From IMG/VR virus record IMGVR_UViG_3300020039_000031: a DNA stretch of 64,000 nucleotides. The stretch is one strand, 5' to 3'. Shown here one piece after another: positions 349-35,038 of this stretch (positions are counted from its first letter, which is position 1; each line of letters starts with the position of its first letter). A model generated the notes under the pieces. The model had not been told where the DNA came from. It worked only from the letters and a program-made list of their open reading frames with translations, and made no database searches. A program made the position numbers and the translations under genes. The DNA is from a virus.

Positions 349-540
349 TTATAAAACGTACTTCCTTCCTTCGTATGCTAGCATCCACTCACGGAGCCTT
401 GTCTCTCTTACATACATTCTATTATTAATATGTATAGTTGGGAAGCAATCTGATTTGAGCAACTCATATACCCTTCCTCTTCCCATATTAAGTATATGTT
501 GCAGGTCTTTACATGTCAATAGCTTATCGTTTCTGTCCAT
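349..540 (-). CDS. small helix-turn-helix DNA-binding protein (excisionase/AlpA-like)
   Basis: 63-aa ORF; LTCKDLQHILNMGRGRVYELLKS...IHINNRMYVRETRLREW looks like a Xis/MerR-type winged HTH. Confidence 0.45.
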   Translation of the reverse strand: MDRNDKLLTCKDLQHILNMGRGRVYELLKSDCFPTIHINNRMYVRETRLREWMLAYEGRKYVL

Positions 541-860: not shown

Positions 861-888
861 TAAAAAAAAGGGGCGGAATCCCGCCCCA
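861..888 (-). terminator. rho-independent terminator after the dUTPase gene
   Basis: minus-strand hairpin GGGGCGGGATTCCGCCCC followed by TTTTTTTT, directly after the stop at 905. Confidence 0.6.
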
Positions 889-904: not shown

Positions 905-1429
905 TTATTTGCCCGTGCTTCCAAAACCGCCGTTTCTTATACCGTCAGCCTCATCATCAATAGTGATGCCGTATACAGTAAAGACGCCTTGCATATAACC
1001 ATCGCCACGCATCACTTCCATCTTCTTCCCTTCCCGGCCATCATTTGTAAGCTTTGCGATGATGTGCCCCTCGTTCTTTTCCGAGCCGTAATAATCACTA
1101 TCGATATTGCCGACAGTGTTGTCTAACTGGACTCTGTACTTGAATCCTTGGCCGCTCTTTGGCATACACATAAGCCACCATTCGTCGTTTATCCAGCATC
1201 GTATGCCAGTAGGAATAACGATGCTCTCACCTGCTTCGAGAGAAAACGGGAATGGCGCCCTAAAATCGTAACCAGATGACCCCCTTGTGGCGCGGGTTGG
1301 TAGCTGAATGATGTCGTATAGGTATTTAAGTTGAGACTTGTCACTGCAACAATCGGGCTGATGTGTTTTCATATCAGTAACCCACTGATCAAAACTTACC
1401 TTTTCAAATTGAGCTATTCGTCTATTCAT
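905..1429 (-). CDS. dut: dUTP diphosphatase (dUTPase)
   Basis: motifs SSGYDFRAP and PKSGQGFKYRVQLDNTVGNIDSDYYGSE match dUTPase motifs II-V. Confidence 0.8.
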   Translation of the reverse strand: MNRRIAQFEKVSFDQWVTDMKTHQPDCCSDKSQLKYLYDIIQLPTRATRGSSGYDFRAPFPFSLEAGESIVIPTGIRCWINDEWWLMCMPKSGQGFKYRVQLDNTVGNIDSDYYGSEKNEGHIIAKLTNDGREGKKMEVMRGDGYMQGVFTVYGITIDDEADGIRNGGFGSTGK

Positions 1430-1540
1430 TCATAATCCCCTTGTGTAAAGATGATTTAATTTCGTGGTGTCATATTGTTGTTGAACACAAACGCAATCGA
1501 GACAAGGTACATGACAAACATGAATACTAGGAAGTATGTA

Positions 1541-1723
1541 TCACCTATTTTTTATGTAGAGCCCACAGCGGCACATGCCGCTGTCCTGCTCTCTGAACTC
1601 TTTGCAGATACATTTTGTGTCTGCATTCCGTTCAAGGCGGCTTGGGCAGTAGCCGCTGTTTTGTTTCAGTTGCTTCTGAACCTCCCTAACATAATCTCTG
1701 TCAGGTTTTTTCTGTATTCCCAT
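1541..1723 (-). CDS. ferredoxin:thioredoxin/disulfide reductase catalytic-subunit-like small protein, paralog 2
   Basis: 60 aa; SGYCPSRLERNADTKCICKEFREQDSGMCRCGLYIK resembles the CPC...CHC spacing of the FTR catalytic chain. Confidence 0.5.
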   Translation of the reverse strand: MGIQKKPDRDYVREVQKQLKQNSGYCPSRLERNADTKCICKEFREQDSGMCRCGLYIKNR

Positions 1724-1864
1724 TGATCTTCTCCGCGAGATATTTCATGTACCTGTCGCATGTACTGAAAAAATTTGTGACGAACATATCATCGATGTTG
1801 CCTCCGTAGTTCTTATAGCTACGCTCACAATCATCGAACGGACAACTGTCGTTCTTACAGCACG

Positions 1865-2053
1865 TCAATCTGAAACCTCCTTGATATAAAGGCCGCAATG
1901 GCAAGTCCCTGACTTCATATCTTTGAAGTCTTTACACATACACTTCGTCTCTGGCACTTTTTCAAGAGCGCAGGGGCAATATCCGTCATTTTTGCGAAGA
2001 GCGTCGAGAATTTTCTCCCGATGCTCATGATTCTCTGTCATTTTGATTTTCAT
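1865..2053 (-). CDS. ferredoxin:thioredoxin/disulfide reductase catalytic-subunit-like small protein, paralog 1
   Basis: 62 aa; DGYCPCALEKVPETKCMCKDFKDMKSGTCHCGLYIK (CPC-x9-CMC-x10-CHC); tandem duplicate of 1541..1723. Confidence 0.5.
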   Translation of the reverse strand: MKIKMTENHEHREKILDALRKNDGYCPCALEKVPETKCMCKDFKDMKSGTCHCGLYIKEVSD

Positions 2054-2538
2054 CAGCTAATCTTCCTTGCGAATTGATTTTCGGATGCGAGTTGGACGCC
2101 AAGCACATCGTCAAATATTGGCTTTATATTGGGAATGTAGCGCCCAAACTTAATAATGATGTTTCCGAATTCCTGTAAGGCGGTCATAAAAGACTCGGTA
2201 ATTTCCTCCGGATAGTATCCTGTGTAAATAACGAAATCACACATCTCTCCGTGCTTACGAAAGGTTCGTACCAGTTCCAAAACTTCATCCGCCTGCAATA
2301 AGGGTTCAAGGCCGCCGATAACGACGGCCTTTGTAATATCATTTGACCTATACATATTTAATATAGTGTCGTCGGAAACATCACGAGGCTTAGATAGAGC
2401 AAGATCTGCGTTCTGACATATACTGATATCCAAGCCCTGCTCTCTACAGCACTTCCAGTCGCATTTTGAGCTGATGATAAACATGGATGGCAATCTGTAG
2501 TTGACGAAATCCTCAATTACAATGTCTTTGACGATCAC
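2053..2538 (-). CDS. nrdG: anaerobic ribonucleotide reductase activating protein (radical SAM)
   Basis: 161 aa, N-terminal Cys cluster KCDWKCCREQG; directly downstream of nrdD and overlapping it. Confidence 0.65.
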   Translation of the reverse strand: MIVKDIVIEDFVNYRLPSMFIISSKCDWKCCREQGLDISICQNADLALSKPRDVSDDTILNMYRSNDITKAVVIGGLEPLLQADEVLELVRTFRKHGEMCDFVIYTGYYPEEITESFMTALQEFGNIIIKFGRYIPNIKPIFDDVLGVQLASENQFARKIS

Positions 2539-4460
2539 TTCATGACTCCGTCGTTCGCCAAAACGTCTATCCAGCGTCGTTTATCGAACTCATTCTTACG
2601 AATTCGCTGATAACTGCTGACTGGCGTGTAAAACCCGACGACTCTTGCATATGTATCAGACACCGGTTTACCGCATTTTGGGCATGTGTTCATACCGATG
2701 AATGCGTGCTTGTCTTCGCAAACGCTGATCTTCGTGGTGAAAGCGAAATAAATAACCCCGTGGGACGCTACATAGTTCAGCATATCCCACGCGGTTTCTT
2801 CATTCTGAAATCTGTTCTCGATGTTGATATGGGCGATACAACCTCCGCCGCACTTCTTATCGAACAGAGAACCAAGCCTACACTTCTCTTGGATTGTGCA
2901 TTTCTCCATCAGCGGAATCCACTGATTCGAATATATAAAGTACTTGTTCTGCTCGAACAGGAGATTGTCCGCTTGGCAGATCACGCCAGCGCAGTTTTCC
3001 GCCGGTATCATTTCGATATTGAAAGAAAAGTCACAATCGAAATTATCTTTCACTTCGTTCATCACATCAAGAATCTCGGTTGCGAATTCAACAGCGGCTT
3101 CAGAATAAAACTTATTGCCAAGAACGTCTGTATCGATCAGGCCAAACAGATCCATGACCTCATACATACCGATACCGCCGATTGTACAGAACTGCTTGTC
3201 AAGCTCGACAGCTCCGTCCTGGTAGTTAGGCAAAAGCCCCTTCTCAATGTTTCGCTTGATGATGTGCCGCATGGAAAACAGTGCTTTACAGTCAAGGGTC
3301 ACGCGATCACGAAGGATGTTCAGATACTTCTTGCGGTTAAATCCGCTCTCATAGGCAATTCGCACGAGATTGATAGTGCTGACGCGGCAGGAACCGACAG
3401 ACAGCGCTGTACCGCCGATGGAGTTGATAAACGCATCGAGCTTTTTCGTATCTGATAACAGGCGGCAGCAGTTTGATAAGACGCCAACATTGTCGCTGAC
3501 GAAGAAGTTGCTGTCAGACCATCTAATGTTATGGTTGGAGCACCATCTGGCGAACTCTTCGTCTACGAATTTCCCGTTCTGATAGAGCAGTGAGTATGTT
3601 AAAACCGGATATGTGAACATATTGGTCTCACGAATCTCGCTGACTACATCCATAAATATCTTCTGCGCTTCGATCAGATCGTTGATGTGGTCAATGGCGA
3701 AAGTGCCGTCCGGGAACTCCACGCCTCCGAACAGCGATTCGAGATATGGATGATCGAAGATCGAAATATTAGTAAAGGCTGATTGATCTATCCTTAGGAA
3801 TGGTTGGTTAAGACGATAGATCAGCTTCTGATACTGCTGGCGAAGGTAGTAATCCGGATCTTTCATGAAGTATCCGTTCTCAACATCCTTCTTCCAGAAG
3901 TACCATGCCCAAATCAGTACATTGGGCATCCCAACTGCTCCGCTCTGGCGGTTTGACAGGAAGGAAACGAACTCGATCACATCATCGAAATATGTTGTAA
4001 GGTGCTTTGGAGCCTCGTTGTTGTAATTACCGAGGAAGAAAAGCCCTTCCTTGGCGAGCCTTGTGAAATCATTTGCCCAACAGTACGGGAAATAACTTGC
4101 TGTTGTACTATCGTTAAGGTAAAACCCCTTGCTGAATTCCTGCTCAAGCCATTGTTTCGCTGTGCGAAGTCCCCACTGCTTCTTGATTGTCATAAAGATC
4201 TTATTTAATCCAAAGAGCTTGTCCTCGCTCTTTGCTTTCTCCGTCATAAAGCTGCGGATATCCTTATGACTCACATTCGCATTTGGATCGATGCTCGCGT
4301 CGGCCACAGTTTCGTGATCAACGAAGTTCTCAATGAACTCCGAGAAATCGAGCTGGCTTGGATGAAGACCGTTGATATACTCAAAGTCCTCACCATATTT
4401 CTTTTTCAGTTCTTCAAGACACCGTTCAAAGTCCTTTGACAGTTTCAGTTCAATGTTCAT
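2535..4460 (-). CDS. nrdD: anaerobic ribonucleoside-triphosphate reductase, class III
   Basis: 641 aa; C-terminal Zn ribbon CPKCG followed by glycyl-radical-like motif ARVVGFYTP; ATP-cone-like N-terminus. Confidence 0.85.
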   Translation of the reverse strand: MNIELKLSKDFERCLEELKKKYGEDFEYINGLHPSQLDFSEFIENFVDHETVADASIDPNANVSHKDIRSFMTEKAKSEDKLFGLNKIFMTIKKQWGLRTAKQWLEQEFSKGFYLNDSTTASYFPYCWANDFTRLAKEGLFFLGNYNNEAPKHLTTYFDDVIEFVSFLSNRQSGAVGMPNVLIWAWYFWKKDVENGYFMKDPDYYLRQQYQKLIYRLNQPFLRIDQSAFTNISIFDHPYLESLFGGVEFPDGTFAIDHINDLIEAQKIFMDVVSEIRETNMFTYPVLTYSLLYQNGKFVDEEFARWCSNHNIRWSDSNFFVSDNVGVLSNCCRLLSDTKKLDAFINSIGGTALSVGSCRVSTINLVRIAYESGFNRKKYLNILRDRVTLDCKALFSMRHIIKRNIEKGLLPNYQDGAVELDKQFCTIGGIGMYEVMDLFGLIDTDVLGNKFYSEAAVEFATEILDVMNEVKDNFDCDFSFNIEMIPAENCAGVICQADNLLFEQNKYFIYSNQWIPLMEKCTIQEKCRLGSLFDKKCGGGCIAHINIENRFQNEETAWDMLNYVASHGVIYFAFTTKISVCEDKHAFIGMNTCPKCGKPVSDTYARVVGFYTPVSSYQRIRKNEFDKRRWIDVLANDGVMK

Positions 4461-4683
4461 TCTGGTCTGCCTCCTCCGCGTCTACCCATCTGCACGCGGC
4501 GGCAAAATCCATCAACGTATCATTGACCTGAAGAACCGGGACATATGTAATACCCATGTCTTGCATGGTCTTTATATCGTTGTTCTCTTTGAACGCCAAT
4601 CCTCTGGCGTTCATCTTTTTCTTCAACACGACGCACTGAGGGCAATCTGTGCTGTAAAGCGTAATATCATACATAGCATTCAA
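4450..4683 (-). CDS. nrdH: NrdH/glutaredoxin-like redoxin
   Basis: 77 aa with CPQC active-site motif; thioredoxin-fold spacing. Confidence 0.7.
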   Translation of the reverse strand: MNAMYDITLYSTDCPQCVVLKKKMNARGLAFKENNDIKTMQDMGITYVPVLQVNDTLMDFAAACRWVDAEEADQNEH

Positions 4684-5231
4684 TTCCTTTGATCTATGTG
4701 CTGAATCACCCGGTAGATGTCATCCCAGTTAAAAACCCGGTGCATACCGTGTATAGCCGCGTCATACCCGCGGTTGTGCGGCGCGTCCATCAGGATTTTG
4801 TGATAATCGCCGCCCTCTAAATTGTGGATTCCGTCGTCGATCAAAACATCGCCACGGATCATTTGTTTCTTTGTCGCCAGGATTACCTTGTCCCATGAAA
4901 GGAATGGATAGTATTTGAACAGCACGGTATCCATCTTCACTTCCACGGTCTTATAGTTGGAGTTCGTGACGATAAAAATATCGTGGCCGTCTGCCATTAG
5001 CTTCTGGAGCACTTCACTTGCTCCAGGAACCGGTTTGACATTCGCCCACAATTCCCCGTCTTTTAAGACGCCATATATTTGTTTGTGCGTAAGACCGGGA
5101 TAAAAATCTGTGATCCACCAACCAGTAACGTCTTCTGGATCAACATTCCGATCGTACTTTTTGTTGAGATATGGTATCCATGCCTGTAATAGCTGATCTA
5201 ATACCTCATCCATGTCTACAAGTATTGTCAA
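4680..5231 (-). CDS. 5'(3')-deoxyribonucleotidase, HAD family
   Basis: N-terminal DMDEVL (DxDxV/T HAD motif I) and VTNS; NT5C-like. Confidence 0.65.
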   Translation of the reverse strand: MTILVDMDEVLDQLLQAWIPYLNKKYDRNVDPEDVTGWWITDFYPGLTHKQIYGVLKDGELWANVKPVPGASEVLQKLMADGHDIFIVTNSNYKTVEVKMDTVLFKYYPFLSWDKVILATKKQMIRGDVLIDDGIHNLEGGDYHKILMDAPHNRGYDAAIHGMHRVFNWDDIYRVIQHIDQRN

Positions 5232-33362: not shown

Positions 33363-35038
33363 TCGTACAAATATTTCCCACGTTCTCGAACAGGAGCCAT
33401 GTTTCGGTTTTTAATATCTTCAAACACCTTTGAGTTGTATGGCATCGAATACGCAAAGCCCGATGAAAAATATACGTAGCATGTCGTATGCTCGTCGAAT
33501 GTAATGATGACGTATGTGTTTGCCCTTGTTATAGCTTGACCACCTAACCCGCCAAACCCAAGCGCGGTACTTGACCAAACCTGCTCAAAGGTATGAACTT
33601 CAATATCATCCAGTAAAGCCCCTCGTTCTGTGAGGTCTTTTTCGATAGCGTGAAGCTCGTTAACTATTTGCTCAAACCGATTGTTCATAAAAAGCCTCTT
33701 TCATTTCATTTCAATAGGTTCGACTTCCATATAGTAGTCACCATAGAACCAGCTTGTCCACGGACTCTCATGTTTAGCTCTTGCCGAGGCAATCTCGCCA
33801 TTAAACTCCCCAACTGCATCTCCTAAAAACATATTGTTTTCAAGCTGGTACACAAGGGCTTCCCTTTTAGCCTGGAGATTTGAAAGATTTGCATCGTGAT
33901 TGATCCGCTCATCAACGATACAGATGCCAGACACAAAGATGGCAATAATGGCAAGCACACAAAGAGTTACTGCAATTAAACTTGTGGTATCCCAACCATG
34001 TTCCGACGCTGACTTAGCAATAAGTCCGCTACCAACAGCCACGCTAATGAATATCAATGTTAGAATCATTTAATACCTCTCTCCCGCCAGTTGTTACAGC
34101 CGTTCTGCTCGTTCTTGAATCTCCCATACGGCGGTTCGATGGGGCACTTGCATTCTCCTAGCCCGCAGGACAACCAAGGACGCTGATATCTTGCACCATC
34201 AGAAGTAACACCGCCATTCGGCACGAAATATTTACAGTGCCCACATAGCTTAATAGCCATAAAAATATCCTTTCATTCCTCTCTGCGCTGACCGAAAGCA
34301 CAGTAAAACCCATCGCCAGTGTGCCGTTCGAGTTCGATGCAATACGTCTTACCCTTTGGTCTAAACCAGCACTCGTCGCACCGCACGACATGGACGGCAT
34401 CGATGGTGGGAGCGTTAAGCAGCTGCCTAATAACAATGTTCATCCCATTTGTTCTTTCCCATATTCTGATACCATCTTCTGTATCACATTTTTCCTCGGA
34501 AGTGGGGAGCGCATCCGCATCAATTAGCCTCATAAAAATCGCCTTTCATCATAATCCAGATCAGAAGTCGCCACGGATTGCTTTACGGACTTCATCCTGC
34601 CAGTATCTGATGGTCCTCACAACAGCCGCACACTCCTTAGCTTCGTCGTCTCGGCCTTCTTTTTCTAGCCATTCTGAACGACTGGCCAGCAACTCAATCT
34701 GCACCTCCATGCACTGATCGATCATATGTAACCCGCGAGATTGCTTTTCAAGTAACTTACGTCTTTTGAATAAGGTCATAAAAGCCGCCTTTCATCCGCA
34801 CGCATCCATTACCCAAGCAATAAATACGAAGAACCTGACAACCGGTAGATTACTGATAATAACCGTGAGGATAAGCGCCCACCCCTTTTCTCGGTTATCA
34901 TCAGACGTGATTTTCTCTGGAAGATCGCTCCAAAAATCATCTTTATGCACATTTGCAAATGCGACCAATACAAGATACCAGAAAGAGATACCAATGTGTG
35001 AATGACATACCAATGGTTGGTCAATATTTCTTCTTTTA

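What the first reader, a model, noticed from the sequence alone, without database searches (positions are those of the whole stretch)
1541..4683. Class III RNR operon carrying its own thioredoxin-type reductant chain (duplicated FTR-like proteins plus NrdH)
nrdD-nrdG are followed by two tandem paralogs with the CPC...C.C...CHC cysteine pattern of ferredoxin:thioredoxin-reductase catalytic subunits. An NrdH-like CPQC redoxin overlaps the nrdD start. This resembles the formate-independent NrdD subtype described in Methanosarcina, which takes electrons from ferredoxin via a ferredoxin:disulfide reductase and a thioredoxin. The phage's NrdD also carries an atypical radical motif (ARVVGFYTP). A phage carrying the whole electron-delivery chain, with the FDR duplicated, is unusual.
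Basis: partly seen in the sequence, partly recalled or inferred. Interest (0 to 1): 0.55.

Follow-up and report, generated by a model that had tools for sequence, protein, structure and literature searches.

The report
Phage anaerobic RNR with mini ferredoxin-disulfide reductases
A gut-Clostridia phage carries an oxygen-sensitive DNA-precursor enzyme of the thiol-dependent type together with a small redoxin and two 60-residue iron-sulfur 'mini-FTR' proteins that probably let it run on host ferredoxin; the module is common in such phages but has not been studied experimentally, as far as I could find.

Summary
The genes are real and sit at the stated coordinates.

- **NrdD:** it is a close homolog of Thermotoga maritima NrdD (E 1e-161). 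It has the NrdD2/NrdDh signature (C127, C331-C332, E483, G609). It is not the Methanosarcina NrdD3 type, and its glycyl motif is normal for this clade.
- **Copy B (1541-1723):** it has CPS...CIC...CRC, so it lacks the interchange Cys and the His. It is nevertheless under purifying selection.
- **Extra gene:** a conserved 55-aa Cys-rich gene lies between A and B.
- **Redoxin:** glutaredoxin-like, not a bona fide NrdH.
- **Distribution:** the grx-NrdD-NrdG-miniFTR module is widespread. 76 of 80 sampled viral mini-FTR loci have it, but mini-FTR is optional (47 of 80 NrdD-anchored loci). The tandem A+B pair is rare (4 distinct phage lineages, 5 loci counting the window's own contig).
- **Context elsewhere:** cellular mini-FTRs sit next to thioredoxin. 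B-type copies also occur alone after class II RNR genes.

Best reading: host ferredoxin → mini-FTR → redoxin → NrdD. This is a new variant of a known kind. No biochemistry is available.

The parts
4450..4674 (-). Glutaredoxin-like small redoxin (74 aa from the ATG at 4674; an alternative TTG start at 4683 gives 77 aa). Active site C11-P-Q-C14, conserved cis-Pro (VP). Overlaps the nrdD start by 11 nt.
   Evidence: ORF; a 74-aa gene is called in L002. Pfam Glutaredoxin E 0.012. NCBIfam YruB E 2e-5 and NrdH E 6e-5, both far below their cutoffs. A profile of 29 operon-linked homologs gives PDB MTH895 7e-8, Grx 1.4e-7 and NrdH 1e-5. Present in 77 of 80 NrdD-anchored viral loci.
2535..4460 (-). NrdD, class III (glycyl-radical) ribonucleoside-triphosphate reductase of the NrdD2 / NrdDh type, 641 aa. 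Key residues: C127, C331-C332 (NCCR), E483, Zn site C581/H585/C593/C596, glycyl radical G609.
   Evidence: PF13597 E 2e-82; NF006127 562.9 bits above the cutoff of 545. T. maritima NrdD 4coi/4u3e E 1e-161, with aligned motifs. Residue conservation in 76 homologs. Subclass definitions from PMC4493059.
2053..2538 (-). NrdG-like radical-SAM activase, 161 aa. Cysteine spacing is non-canonical: C26-x3-C30-x10-C41. Overlaps the nrdD stop by 4 nt and the mini-FTR A start by 1 nt.
   Evidence: Fer4_12 E 1e-6; weak NrdG/NrdG3 hits. phrog_626 'anaerobic RNR small subunit'. Invariant Cys in 78 homologs.
1865..2053 (-). Mini-FTR A, 62 aa. A minimal ferredoxin:thioredoxin/disulfide-reductase catalytic core with C26-P-C28 ... 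C38-M-C40 ... C51-H52-C53. It has all six Cys and the His of FTR.
1701..1868 (-). ORF55, a small Cys-rich protein (MTCCKNDSCPFDDCERSYKNY...STCDRYMKYLAEKING). TTG start overlaps the stop of A and is preceded by AAGGAGG. Four conserved Cys (C4, C9, C14, C37). Function unknown.
   Evidence: Sequence. Conserved ORF in L011 and L172, absent from L009. Only 2 database relatives. pN 0.17 against pS 0.61-0.99. No Pfam or PHROG hit. AF2 pLDDT 63.5, unusable.
1541..1723 (-). Mini-FTR B, 60 aa. A monothiol paralog with C26-P-S28 ... C38-I-C40 ... C51-R52-C53. It keeps the four putative cluster ligands and the cluster-proximal Cys, but lacks the interchange Cys and the His.
   Evidence: PF02943 E 0.014; phrog_38239 E 9e-16. 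B-type relatives P0122-P0125, P0132, P0135 and P0169. Purifying selection: pN 0.04 against pS 0.77 versus L172. The same type occurs alone after class II RNR in L255-L259.
905..1429 (-). dUTPase, the last gene of the nucleotide-metabolism operon.
   Evidence: PF00692 E 1e-7. Conserved position after mini-FTR in most related loci.
870..887 (-). Intrinsic-terminator-like hairpin (GGGGCGGGATTCCGCCCC followed by T8) that closes the operon.
4680..5231 (-). Deoxyribonucleotidase (NT5C family) directly upstream of the redoxin. Part of the conserved NT5C-grx-NrdD-NrdG-miniFTR-dUTPase order.
   Evidence: PF06941 E 3e-34. Order '5xDGFU' in 38 of 80 viral loci.

Best explanation
This is a phage-borne, formate-independent class III ribonucleotide reductase module. 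It carries its own thiol-reducing accessories.

Shown by sequence and structure comparison:
- NrdD is of the NrdD2/NrdDh type. It has a bottom-face Cys, a Cys-Cys finger-loop motif and an active-site Glu.
- It is co-transcribed with NrdG, a glutaredoxin-like CxxC redoxin, and a 62-aa protein (A) that is the minimal catalytic core of the [4Fe-4S] ferredoxin:thioredoxin / ferredoxin:disulfide reductase family.

Inferred:
- Host reduced ferredoxin gives two successive electrons to the [4Fe-4S]/disulfide centre of A.
- A reduces the disulfide of the phage redoxin.
- The redoxin re-reduces the disulfide formed in NrdD at each turnover.
- dNTP synthesis during infection of a fermenting, ferredoxin-rich Clostridia host therefore needs neither formate nor NADPH-thioredoxin reductase.
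- Mini-FTR is an optional booster. Many sister phages keep only the redoxin and presumably use a host reductase, and many Clostridia have their own mini-FTR next to thioredoxin.

Copy B:
- It is not a second FDR of the same kind. It is a conserved monothiol variant with the cluster ligands plus the cluster-proximal Cys only.
- The same variant occurs as the sole copy behind class II RNR genes that have a Cys-rich C-terminal domain.
- I therefore infer that B is active on its own and acts on a different disulfide, possibly directly on a Cys-rich/Zn domain of the RNR.
For: NrdD subtype:
- T. maritima NrdD E 1e-161, with C125/SCCR/NIE(E495)/RIVGY aligned.
- C127, C331-C332, E483 and G609 are 99-100% conserved in 76 homologs.
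- NrdD2 is defined by the third Cys plus the Glu. NrdDh is defined by the SCCR motif. A protein, not formate, is needed for TmNrdD activity, and N. bacilliformis NrdD uses thioredoxin (PMC4493059).

Mini-FTR identity:
-.
- A phage homolog is already named 'Ferredoxin thioredoxin reductase' in UniProt.

Linkage to RNR:
- 76 of 80 viral mini-FTR loci have NrdD, 78 of 80 have NrdG and 67 of 80 have grx, in the fixed order grx-NrdD-NrdG-miniFTR.
- Clostridium phage c-st has the same order.
- Genes overlap, which suggests translational coupling.
- An in-frame NrdG-miniFTR fusion occurs in two independent assemblies.

Disulfide-reductase role rather than simple electron carrier:
- All six Cys are kept in 119 of 120 relatives.
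- In bacterial genomes without NrdD, thioredoxin lies within 1.1 kb downstream in 27 of 50 loci. In 14 of those it is 0-37 nt away, 13 on the same strand.
- Mini-FTR also follows class II RNR, which has no activase but does need a disulfide reductant.

Copy B is functional:
- Purifying selection.
- It recurs in 4 tandem lineages and alone with NrdJ.
Against: - There is no biochemical evidence for any step.
- A and B score below Pfam's gathering cutoff on their own.
- Mini-FTR is missing from 33 of 80 close NrdD relatives, including the closest at 89% identity. It is therefore not required for the RNR.
- No ferredoxin gene is in the window.
- The NrdG fusion and the NrdG-adjacent position fit a role in activation equally well.
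- E. coli thioredoxin did not support T. maritima NrdD (PMC4493059). The true reductant of this NrdD clade is therefore not settled.
- My mapping of the NrdD2 Glu onto Tm E495 rests on memory of Wei et al. 2014, which the library does not hold.
- The role of B and of ORF55 is conjecture.
Confidence: 0.6

Rival explanations
1. Activation role. The mini-FTR proteins serve glycyl-radical installation rather than turnover. They would either keep the C-terminal Zn-site cysteines of NrdD reduced, as thioredoxin does for E. coli NrdD, or pass electrons to the radical-SAM cluster of NrdG.
For: - Mini-FTR always lies directly after NrdG with overlapping stop and start codons.
- An NrdG-miniFTR fusion exists in two assemblies.
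- The NrdD Zn site C581/H585/C593/C596 is conserved.
- Thioredoxin is reported to have an activating role for E. coli class III RNR (PMC4390871).
- This NrdG family has an unusual CX3CX10C motif.
Against: - From general knowledge of FTR, its clusters cycle 2+/3+ coupled to a disulfide and are poor low-potential one-electron donors.
- Mini-FTR (B-type) also sits alone next to class II RNR, which has no activase.
- Cellular homologs pair with thioredoxin.
- The NrdD has the full thiol-turnover residue set and so needs a disulfide reductant anyway.
Confidence: 0.15
2. General redox auxiliary gene. The phage mini-FTRs reduce host thioredoxin and other host disulfides (oxidative-stress or redox takeover). 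They would only happen to be carried in the nucleotide-metabolism module.
For: - Cellular mini-FTRs lie in operons with a flavodiiron protein and thioredoxin in Ruminococcus and Oscillospiraceae.
- Mini-FTR is dispensable in 33 of 80 NrdD relatives.
Against: - Fixed position next to RNR genes in 76 of 80 viral loci, and next to a different RNR class in others.
- Fusion to NrdG.
- Co-occurrence with a phage-encoded redoxin.
Confidence: 0.12
3. Copy B is a catalytically dead partner. It would form a heterodimer with A, playing the part of the FTR variable subunit, or it would act as a one-electron [4Fe-4S] relay. It would have no disulfide-reducing activity of its own.
For: - B lacks the Cys57-equivalent interchange thiol and the His86-equivalent.
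- In the NrdD context it always occurs in tandem with an intact A.
- Purifying selection shows it is kept.
Against: - B-type proteins 62-70% identical to B are the only mini-FTR seen directly after class II RNR genes in L255-L259. Those contigs are short, so an A copy elsewhere is not excluded.
- Single-copy CPC...CRC proteins show that the His-to-Arg change alone is tolerated.
Confidence: 0.25
4. The small proteins are unrelated Zn-binding Cys-rich peptides and the NrdD uses formate like T4/E. coli NrdD.
For: A and B are below Pfam's gathering score.
Against: - 64 of 70 relatives hit PF02943.
- NrdD lacks any significant match to T4 NrdD and has the Cys-Cys/Glu set.
Confidence: 0.03

Closest known systems
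Methanosarcina barkeri class III RNR system: ferredoxin -> FDR ([4Fe-4S] ferredoxin:disulfide reductase) -> NrdH-like redoxin -> NrdD3. Source: Wei et al. 2015, Biochemistry 54:7019. I know it from its citations in PMC9176816 and PMC5704485 and from memory of the abstract. The paper itself is not held.
   Same: - The predicted logic is the same: an FTR-family Fe-S disulfide reductase plus a small CxxC redoxin encoded with the RNR feeds a formate-independent NrdD from ferredoxin.
   Different: - The NrdD here is NrdD2/NrdDh (Glu present), not NrdD3.
- The reductase is a 60-aa core without the rubredoxin domain of FDR (4tpu is 169-173 residues), and it lies inside the RNR operon.
- The system is phage-encoded.
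- A second, monothiol paralog and a 55-aa Cys-rich gene are added.
- The redoxin is glutaredoxin/MTH895-like.
NrdD2 / RNRdb subclass NrdDh: Thermotoga maritima NrdD (PDB 4coi, 4u3e) and Neisseria bacilliformis NrdD (thioredoxin-dependent).
   Same: - E 1e-161 to TmNrdD.
- Conserved C125 equivalent, (S/N)CCR motif, E495 equivalent, C-H-C-C Zn site and RxVG[FY] glycyl motif.
- Phage members of NrdDh are already on record: Clostridium phages in NrdDh1 and 'unclassified phage sequences' (PMC4493059).
   Different: - The N. bacilliformis enzyme was run with NADPH/TrxR/Trx. Here the operon supplies a ferredoxin-type reductase instead.
- The window's NrdD lacks the ~13-residue NrdDh1 insert after the CC motif and has Ile rather than Tm Met356.
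Ferredoxin:thioredoxin reductase catalytic subunit (FTRc, PF02943; Synechocystis 1dj7) and the glutaredoxin/FDR fusion protein (7pwe).
   Same: - CPC-Xn-C(x)C-Xn-C(H)C motif with all six Cys and the His in copy A.
- 7pwe shows that a Grx-FDR partnership exists in nature as a fusion.
   Different: - About 60 aa against about 110 aa, covering profile positions ~27-88 of 106.
- Shorter inter-motif loops (x9 and x10 here; the PDB alignment needs about 7 inserted residues).
- No variable subunit gene.
- Copy B lacks Cys57 and His86 equivalents.
Clostridium botulinum phage c-st (AP008983), genes CST074-CST078.
   Same: Identical order: glutaredoxin - NrdG-like - NrdD - 63-aa FTR-like protein - dUTPase. 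The depositors' note on CST077 already says 'weakly similar to Ferredoxin-thioredoxin reductase, catalytic chain'.
   Different: - Single mini-FTR copy (46% identical to A).
- NrdD with inserts (978 aa), in the NrdDh1 group.
- No B-type paralog and no ORF55.

Membership tests
Class III RNR, NrdD2 subtype (Wei et al.) / RNRdb NrdDh | Curated family model for the T. maritima-like NrdD is passed, with a close match to a solved member. | tested here: met
   NF006127 562.9 bits against a cutoff of 545. 4coi/4u3e E 1e-161 over residues 2-634.
Class III RNR, NrdD2 subtype (Wei et al.) / RNRdb NrdDh | Third active-site Cys: the (S/M)CCR motif, said to be unique to NrdDh. | tested here: met
   S329-N330-C331-C332-R333 aligns with Tm S328-C329-C330-R331. 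The CC pair is conserved in 75 of 76 homologs, and Asn replaces Ser in 65 of 76. Definition from PMC4493059.
Class III RNR, NrdD2 subtype (Wei et al.) / RNRdb NrdDh | Active-site Glu. Its presence separates NrdD2 from NrdD3. | tested here: met
   E483 (NIE) aligns with Tm E495 and is conserved in 76 of 76 homologs. That E495 is the Glu meant by Wei et al. is from memory, because the paper is not held.
Class III RNR, NrdD2 subtype (Wei et al.) / RNRdb NrdDh | Glycyl-radical loop and conserved bottom-face Cys. | tested here: met
   R606-V-V-G609-F aligns with Tm R-I-V-G621-Y. C127 aligns with Tm C125. Both are 100% conserved.
Class III RNR, NrdD2 subtype (Wei et al.) / RNRdb NrdDh | Turnover driven by a thioredoxin-type protein and not by formate. 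| not testable with these tools
   Needs an anaerobic enzyme assay.
Class III RNR, NrdD3 subtype (methanogens) | Third Cys present but Glu absent. | tested here: not met
   The Glu is present and invariant. Definition from PMC4493059.
FTR catalytic subunit / FDR family (PF02943) | Six Cys in CPC...CxC...C(H)C: four cluster ligands plus the redox-active pair. | tested here: met
   Met for copy A: C26, C28, C38, C40, C51, C53 with H52. The motifs align to 4tpu and 7pwe. Not met for copy B, which has S28 and R52.
FTR catalytic subunit / FDR family (PF02943) | Pfam gathering score. | tested here: inconclusive
   A scores 17.0 bits and B 15.9 bits against 22. Relatives pass: c-st CST077 23.0 and R. 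flavefaciens 26.2. 64 of 70 relatives reach E<=0.01, the best at 1e-8.
FTR catalytic subunit / FDR family (PF02943) | Fold of the catalytic domain. | tested here: met
FTR catalytic subunit / FDR family (PF02943) | [4Fe-4S] cluster and ferredoxin-dependent disulfide reduction. | not testable with these tools
   Needs reconstitution, spectroscopy and an activity assay.
Classical heterodimeric FTR (catalytic + variable subunit) | A variable-subunit partner and a ~110-aa catalytic chain. | tested here: not met
   The proteins are 60-62 aa and cover profile positions ~27-88 of 106. No variable-subunit gene is in the operon.
NrdH-redoxin | NrdH family model and signature. The CVQC and WSGFRP motifs are from general knowledge. 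| tested here: not met
   TIGR02194 scores 23.3 bits against a cutoff of 85.75, and PRK10329 18 against 131. The motif is CPQC and there is no WSGFRP. The family profile matches MTH895, Grx and NrdH structures about equally well.
Glutaredoxin/thioredoxin-fold small redoxin | N-terminal CxxC and a cis-Pro in a ~70-aa thioredoxin-fold protein. | tested here: met
   C11, C14 and P46 are invariant in 29 homologs. PDB profile hits: 1ilo 7e-8, 7c10 1.4e-7, 1r7h 1e-5. Relatives pass Pfam Glutaredoxin.
NrdG radical-SAM activase | Canonical CX3CX2C cluster motif. | tested here: not met
   The invariant Cys are C26, C30 and C41 (CX3CX10C) in 78 homologs. Only weak hits to NrdG models, with TIGR02826 at E 1e-4. 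Assignment rests on position and on phrog_626.

The most novel reading that the evidence does not exclude
The B-type protein (CP[S/N]...CxC...CRC) would be a new mechanistic subclass of Fe-S disulfide reductase, a 'monothiol mini-FTR'. Its cluster-proximal Cys would attack the target disulfide itself, and the mixed disulfide would be cleaved at the [4Fe-4S] cluster. It would act directly, without a redoxin, on Cys-rich/Zn domains of ribonucleotide reductases. Those domains would be the C-terminal Cys-rich domain of class II NrdJ, whose physiological reductant is still unknown, and the C-terminal Zn site of NrdD. In this phage, A plus the redoxin would serve turnover. B would serve the Cys-rich domain, perhaps together with ORF55.
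Probability: 0.15. Interest if true: 0.75.

Novelty: new variant of a known kind. Interest (0 to 1): 0.55.

Why it matters
- **Open question for NrdDh enzymes.** The physiological reductant of this NrdD clade is unsettled. T. maritima NrdD needs an unidentified protein, and E. coli thioredoxin fails (PMC4493059). A conserved operon partner that is a ferredoxin-type disulfide reductase gives a direct, testable candidate chain for ferredoxin-rich anaerobes.
- **Open question for class II RNRs.** The reductant of class II RNRs with a Cys-rich C-terminal domain has not been found (PMC5704485). B-type mini-FTR genes sitting directly behind such NrdJ genes give a candidate there too.
- **Enzymology.** At about 60 residues these proteins would be the smallest members of the FTR/FDR family and a compact model for cluster-coupled disulfide chemistry.
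- **Annotation.** They are listed as phrog_38239, 'unknown function', so hundreds of gut and rumen phage genes could be annotated.
- **Ecology.** The module would show temperate Clostridia phages wiring dNTP synthesis to the host's low-potential ferredoxin pool.

Tried and rejected
- **Megablast of the region against GenBank phages:** no match.
- **Literature:** ten full-text searches found no paper linking FTR-like proteins to phage or NrdDh RNR operons (one further attempt was rejected for syntax and not counted). The two key papers, Wei 2014 PNAS and Wei 2015 Biochemistry, are not held. Their content is cited second-hand or from memory.
- **NrdG against PDB sequences:** only spurious repeat-protein hits.
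- **ORF55:** no Pfam or PHROG hit, only 2 database relatives, and an AF2 model at pLDDT 63.5. It was not used for a fold search.
- **Domain fusions:** a search among long mini-FTR relatives gave one informative case, the NrdG fusion. It also gave a HAD-like fusion, a DUF1653 fusion and unassigned extensions.
- **Degenerate DNA pattern for B-type genes:** too loose.
- **IMG/VR scan with a B-type profile:** the best 80 loci kept held only CPC-type genes.
- **afdb50 fold library:** unavailable.
- **Ferredoxin or thioredoxin motif search in all six frames of the window:** nothing relevant beyond the operon's redoxin.
- **Rejected idea:** that the 141-nt gap between A and B is non-coding. It holds a conserved ORF with a strong Shine-Dalgarno sequence.

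Full report
**1. What is in the sequence**

On the minus strand, a tightly packed run of genes occupies 905-5231 (gene calls on the window's own contig). The order is:

| Gene | Window coordinates | Note |
|---|---|---|
| NT5C deoxyribonucleotidase | 4680-5231 | |
| CPQC redoxin | 4450-4674 | ATG start; an alternative TTG start is at 4683 |
| NrdD | 2535-4460 | |
| NrdG-like activase | 2053-2538 | |
| Small Cys protein A | 1865-2053 | |
| 55-aa Cys-rich ORF | 1701-1868 | |
| Small Cys protein B | 1541-1723 | |
| dUTPase | 905-1429 | |

- Neighbouring genes overlap by 1-23 nt.
- A strong terminator-like hairpin with a T8 tail follows dUTPase at 887-870.
- An Xis-like ORF and, just beyond the window's left edge, an integrase follow. 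The module therefore sits at the end of a temperate phage.
- Megablast finds no close relative among GenBank phages.

**2. NrdD subtype**

The 641-aa protein passes the curated model NF006127 (562.9 bits against a cutoff of 545). It matches Thermotoga maritima NrdD (4coi/4u3e) at E 1e-161 over its whole length. The only other solved NrdD hit is at E 6e-6, and T4 NrdD is not hit at all.

The alignment puts these residues in register:

| Phage NrdD | T. maritima NrdD |
|---|---|
| C127 | C125 |
| S-N-C331-C332-R | S-C329-C330-R |
| N-I-E483 | N-I-E495 |
| R-V-V-G609-F | R-I-V-G621-Y |

- In 76 distinct homologs from fetched loci, C127, E483 and G609 are invariant, C331-C332 are kept in 75 of 76, and the glycyl motif is R[IV]VG[FY].
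- The Zn site C581/H585/C593/C596 is also conserved.
- Aurelius et al. (PMC4493059) state that NrdD2 is defined by a third Cys plus a Glu, and NrdD3 by the Cys without the Glu. They also state that the SCCR motif is unique to RNRdb subclass NrdDh, which includes T. maritima, N. bacilliformis, two Clostridium phages and unclassified phage sequences.
- The same paper reports that TmNrdD needs a protein from the >10 kDa fraction of cell extract, and that the N. bacilliformis enzyme uses thioredoxin.

The phage enzyme is therefore NrdD2/NrdDh. It is not the methanogen NrdD3, and the 'atypical' glycyl motif is simply the clade's motif. One caveat applies. That Tm E495 is the Glu meant by Wei et al. 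is from my memory, because that paper is not held.

**3. The small Cys proteins are minimal FTR/FDR catalytic cores**

- PF02943 is the only meaningful Pfam hit for A and B, though both fall below the gathering score (17.0 and 15.9 bits against 22).
- The family is large. There are 308 word-index relatives of ~60 aa and 1424 50%-identity cluster representatives at E<=1e-3.
- 119 of the 120 listed relatives have CxC-x9-CxC-x10/11-CHC (CPC as the first motif in the sequences inspected).
- 64 of 70 aligned members hit PF02943 at E<=0.01, the best at 1e-8. The c-st and Ruminococcus members pass the gathering score.
- A profile of the family finds only the M. acetivorans ferredoxin-dependent disulfide reductase (4tpu, E 0.008) and a Grx/FDR fusion (7pwe, E 0.05) in the PDB. 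The three Cys motifs are aligned and the loops are shorter.
- The AF2 model of A is confident (pLDDT 96.3).
- In the viral structure library the best match is a 69-aa protein already named 'Ferredoxin thioredoxin reductase'.
- PHROGs lists the family as phrog_38239, unknown function.

**4. Copy B is not a plain duplicate**

- A has C26-P-C28, C38-M-C40 and C51-H-C53. B has C26-P-S28, C38-I-C40 and C51-R-C53.
- In FTR numbering (general knowledge of the Synechocystis enzyme), B keeps the four cluster ligands (C55, C74, C76, C85) and the cluster-proximal C87. It lacks the solvent-exposed interchange thiol C57 and His86.
- B-type sequences form a small set: P0122 and P0123 (CPN/CRC), P0125 and P0169 (CPSC/CRC), P0132 and P0135 (CPS/CRC), and P0124 (CPC/CRC).
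- B is under purifying selection. Against L172 the values are pN 0.04 and pS 0.77. Against L011, dN/dS is about 0.08.
- The tandem A+B arrangement recurs in L172, L011 and L009/L010. It is absent from all 240 loci sampled from IMG/VR and from 80 sampled bacterial genome loci.
- Single-copy CPC...CRC proteins exist in normal grx-NrdD-NrdG-x-dUTPase loci, so His→Arg alone is tolerated.

**5. A third small gene**

- Between A and B lies a 55-aa ORF, MTCCKNDSCPFDDCERSYKNY...STCDRYMKYLAEKING.
- Its TTG start overlaps the stop of A and is preceded by AAGGAGG at a 7-nt spacing.
- It is conserved in frame in L011 and L172, with pN 0.17 against pS 0.61-0.99. It is missing from L009.
- It has four conserved Cys and no database family. 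Its AF2 model is unusable.
- Its role is unknown. I list it as part of the operon.

**6. The redoxin**

- The 74-aa protein has C11-P-Q-C14 and a conserved cis-Pro.
- It is far below the NrdH model cutoffs.
- A profile of 29 operon-linked homologs (mostly CPKC) matches MTH895 (7e-8), a glutaredoxin (1.4e-7) and C. ammoniagenes NrdH (1e-5) about equally.
- It is a glutaredoxin-fold redoxin, not a bona fide NrdH.

**7. Genomic context across relatives**

| Sample | Result |
|---|---|
| 80 viral loci picked by mini-FTR | 76 have NrdD, 78 NrdG, 67 the redoxin, almost always in the order (NT5C)-grx-NrdD-NrdG-miniFTR-(dUTPase) |
| Clostridium phage c-st | Same order; its 2005 annotation already notes weak similarity of CST077 to FTR |
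| 80 viral loci picked by NrdD (63-89% identity) | 77 keep the redoxin, only 47 have mini-FTR; the closest relative lacks it |
| 80 bacterial genome loci | 30 have the phage-like module; of the other 50, 27 have a thioredoxin gene downstream and 12 have a flavodiiron protein directly upstream |

- The redoxin is therefore the near-constant partner of NrdD, and mini-FTR is a frequent option.
- Among the 27 thioredoxin-linked loci, the thioredoxin gene is 0-37 nt downstream in 14, 13 of them on the same strand.
- R. flavefaciens YL228 has the order FprA-miniFTR-GNAT-Trx.
- One representative, seen in two independent assemblies, is an in-frame NrdG-miniFTR fusion.
- B-type proteins 62-70% identical to B lie alone directly after class II RNR genes in L255-L259. 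Those genes have the PF02867 barrel, a TSCPD domain and a Cys-rich C-terminus.
- The window has no class II RNR and no ferredoxin-like ORF.

**8. Mechanism**

Shown:
- The identity and subtype of NrdD.
- The fold and family of A and B.
- The redoxin fold.
- The operon structure.
- The conserved linkage.

Inferred:
- Reduced host ferredoxin donates electrons to A.
- The [4Fe-4S]/disulfide centre of A reduces the phage redoxin.
- The redoxin re-reduces the NrdD active-site disulfide.

The argument for a disulfide-reducing (turnover) role rests on four points:
- (i) All six Cys are retained throughout the family.
- (ii) Cellular members pair with thioredoxin.
- (iii) The family is linked to two RNR classes that share only the need for a protein disulfide reductant. 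Class II has no activase.
- (iv) The NrdD has the residue set for thiol-based turnover.

The NrdG fusion and adjacency keep an activation role alive as a rival. Thioredoxin is reported to activate E. coli NrdD (PMC4390871).

For B, its occurrence alone with NrdJ argues that it works on its own. A chemically consistent scheme has three steps:
- The cluster-proximal Cys attacks the target disulfide directly.
- The mixed disulfide is cleaved at the cluster by the first electron.
- The second electron releases the Cys.

This scheme is conjecture.

**9. Comparison with what is known, and novelty**

- The closest functional precedent is the M. barkeri Fd→FDR→NrdH→NrdD3 chain (cited).
- The closest enzyme is T. 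maritima/N. bacilliformis NrdD2.
- The closest operon is phage c-st.
- Four things look new relative to what I could find: an NrdD2/NrdDh enzyme coupled by operon to a ferredoxin-type reductase; the reductase reduced to a 60-aa core; how widespread the module is in Clostridia phages; and the monothiol B-type with ORF55.
- Ten full-text searches found no paper describing this. Database names ('Ferredoxin thioredoxin reductase') already exist for some phage homologs.
- I rate it a new variant of a known kind, with interest 0.55.
- It bears on two stated open questions: the reductant of T. maritima-type NrdD (PMC4493059) and of class II RNRs with a Cys-rich C-terminal domain (PMC5704485).

**10. 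Limits**

- There is no biochemistry.
- Context statistics come from the best 80 loci per scan, not from all hits.
- The NrdJ-linked contigs are short (1-5 kb), so an A-type copy elsewhere cannot be excluded.
- A/B interaction could not be modelled.

Noticed in passing
window 1701-1868 (-): A conserved 55-aa Cys-rich gene (ORF55) lies between the two mini-FTR paralogs. It has a TTG start with an AAGGAGG Shine-Dalgarno sequence and four conserved Cys (Cx4Cx4Cx22C). It is under purifying selection. Only 2 relatives exist in 5.8 billion proteins. A weak look-alike sits directly after mini-FTR in L099 (6207-6365). Function unknown.
   Followed up: partly
L255-L259 (e.g. L257 3-2243 and 2267-2530): B-type (CPS...CRC) mini-FTR genes 62-70% identical to window B lie alone immediately downstream of a class II RNR. 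That NrdJ has the PF02867 barrel, a TSCPD domain and a Cys-rich C-terminus. Loderer et al. 2017 report that the reductant of such Cys-rich-domain NrdJ enzymes has not been found.
   Followed up: partly
window 2053-2538 (-); 78 homologs in fetched loci: The NrdG-like activase family has invariant Cys at C26, C30 and C41 (CX3CX10C, ending CQN). The canonical radical-SAM motif is CX3CX2C. Phage c-st CST075 has CX5CX2C. Only weak matches to curated NrdG models.
   Followed up: partly
L253 271-969 and L254 275-973 (protein P0232): An in-frame fusion of an NrdG-like activase (44% identical to the window's) with a mini-FTR domain, 232 aa, found in two independent metagenome assemblies. A BFVD entry of the same length named 'dihydrofolate reductase' (A0A8S5RYM0) also contains a mini-FTR-like domain. 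It may be the same kind of fusion, misnamed.
   Followed up: partly
L086 4822-6995 (Ruminococcus flavefaciens YL228) and 26 other genome loci: Cellular mini-FTR genes sit in an apparent oxidative-stress/redox operon: flavodiiron protein - mini-FTR - (GNAT) - thioredoxin. This suggests an undescribed minimal ferredoxin:thioredoxin reductase system in Oscillospiraceae and Ruminococcus.
   Followed up: partly
L172 4757-5356; L257 3633-4664: Mobile-element insertions occur in the nucleotide module of relatives. A 199-aa gene of uncharacterised function (no Pfam family on record) is inserted between nrdD and nrdG in L172. A LAGLIDADG domain lies inside the dUTPase gene of L257.
   Followed up: no
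protein P0157 (174 aa), from the representative search: A mini-FTR domain is fused to a C-terminal extension with a HAD-like DFDGT motif. Another relative, P0211, is fused to DUF1653. No context was examined.
   Followed up: no
window 349-540 (-) and 870-887 (-): An Xis/HTH-like 63-aa ORF and a strong terminator hairpin lie just downstream of the operon. On the full contig (L002 8024-9226) the integrase lies just beyond the window's left end. The RNR module is therefore the last block before the attachment/integration genes.
   Followed up: no
window 34066-34260 (-): A 64-aa Cys-rich ORF with a CGHC motif (MAIKLCGHCKYF...). It is probably a zinc-ribbon protein rather than a redoxin, and it is not linked to the operon.
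   Followed up: no
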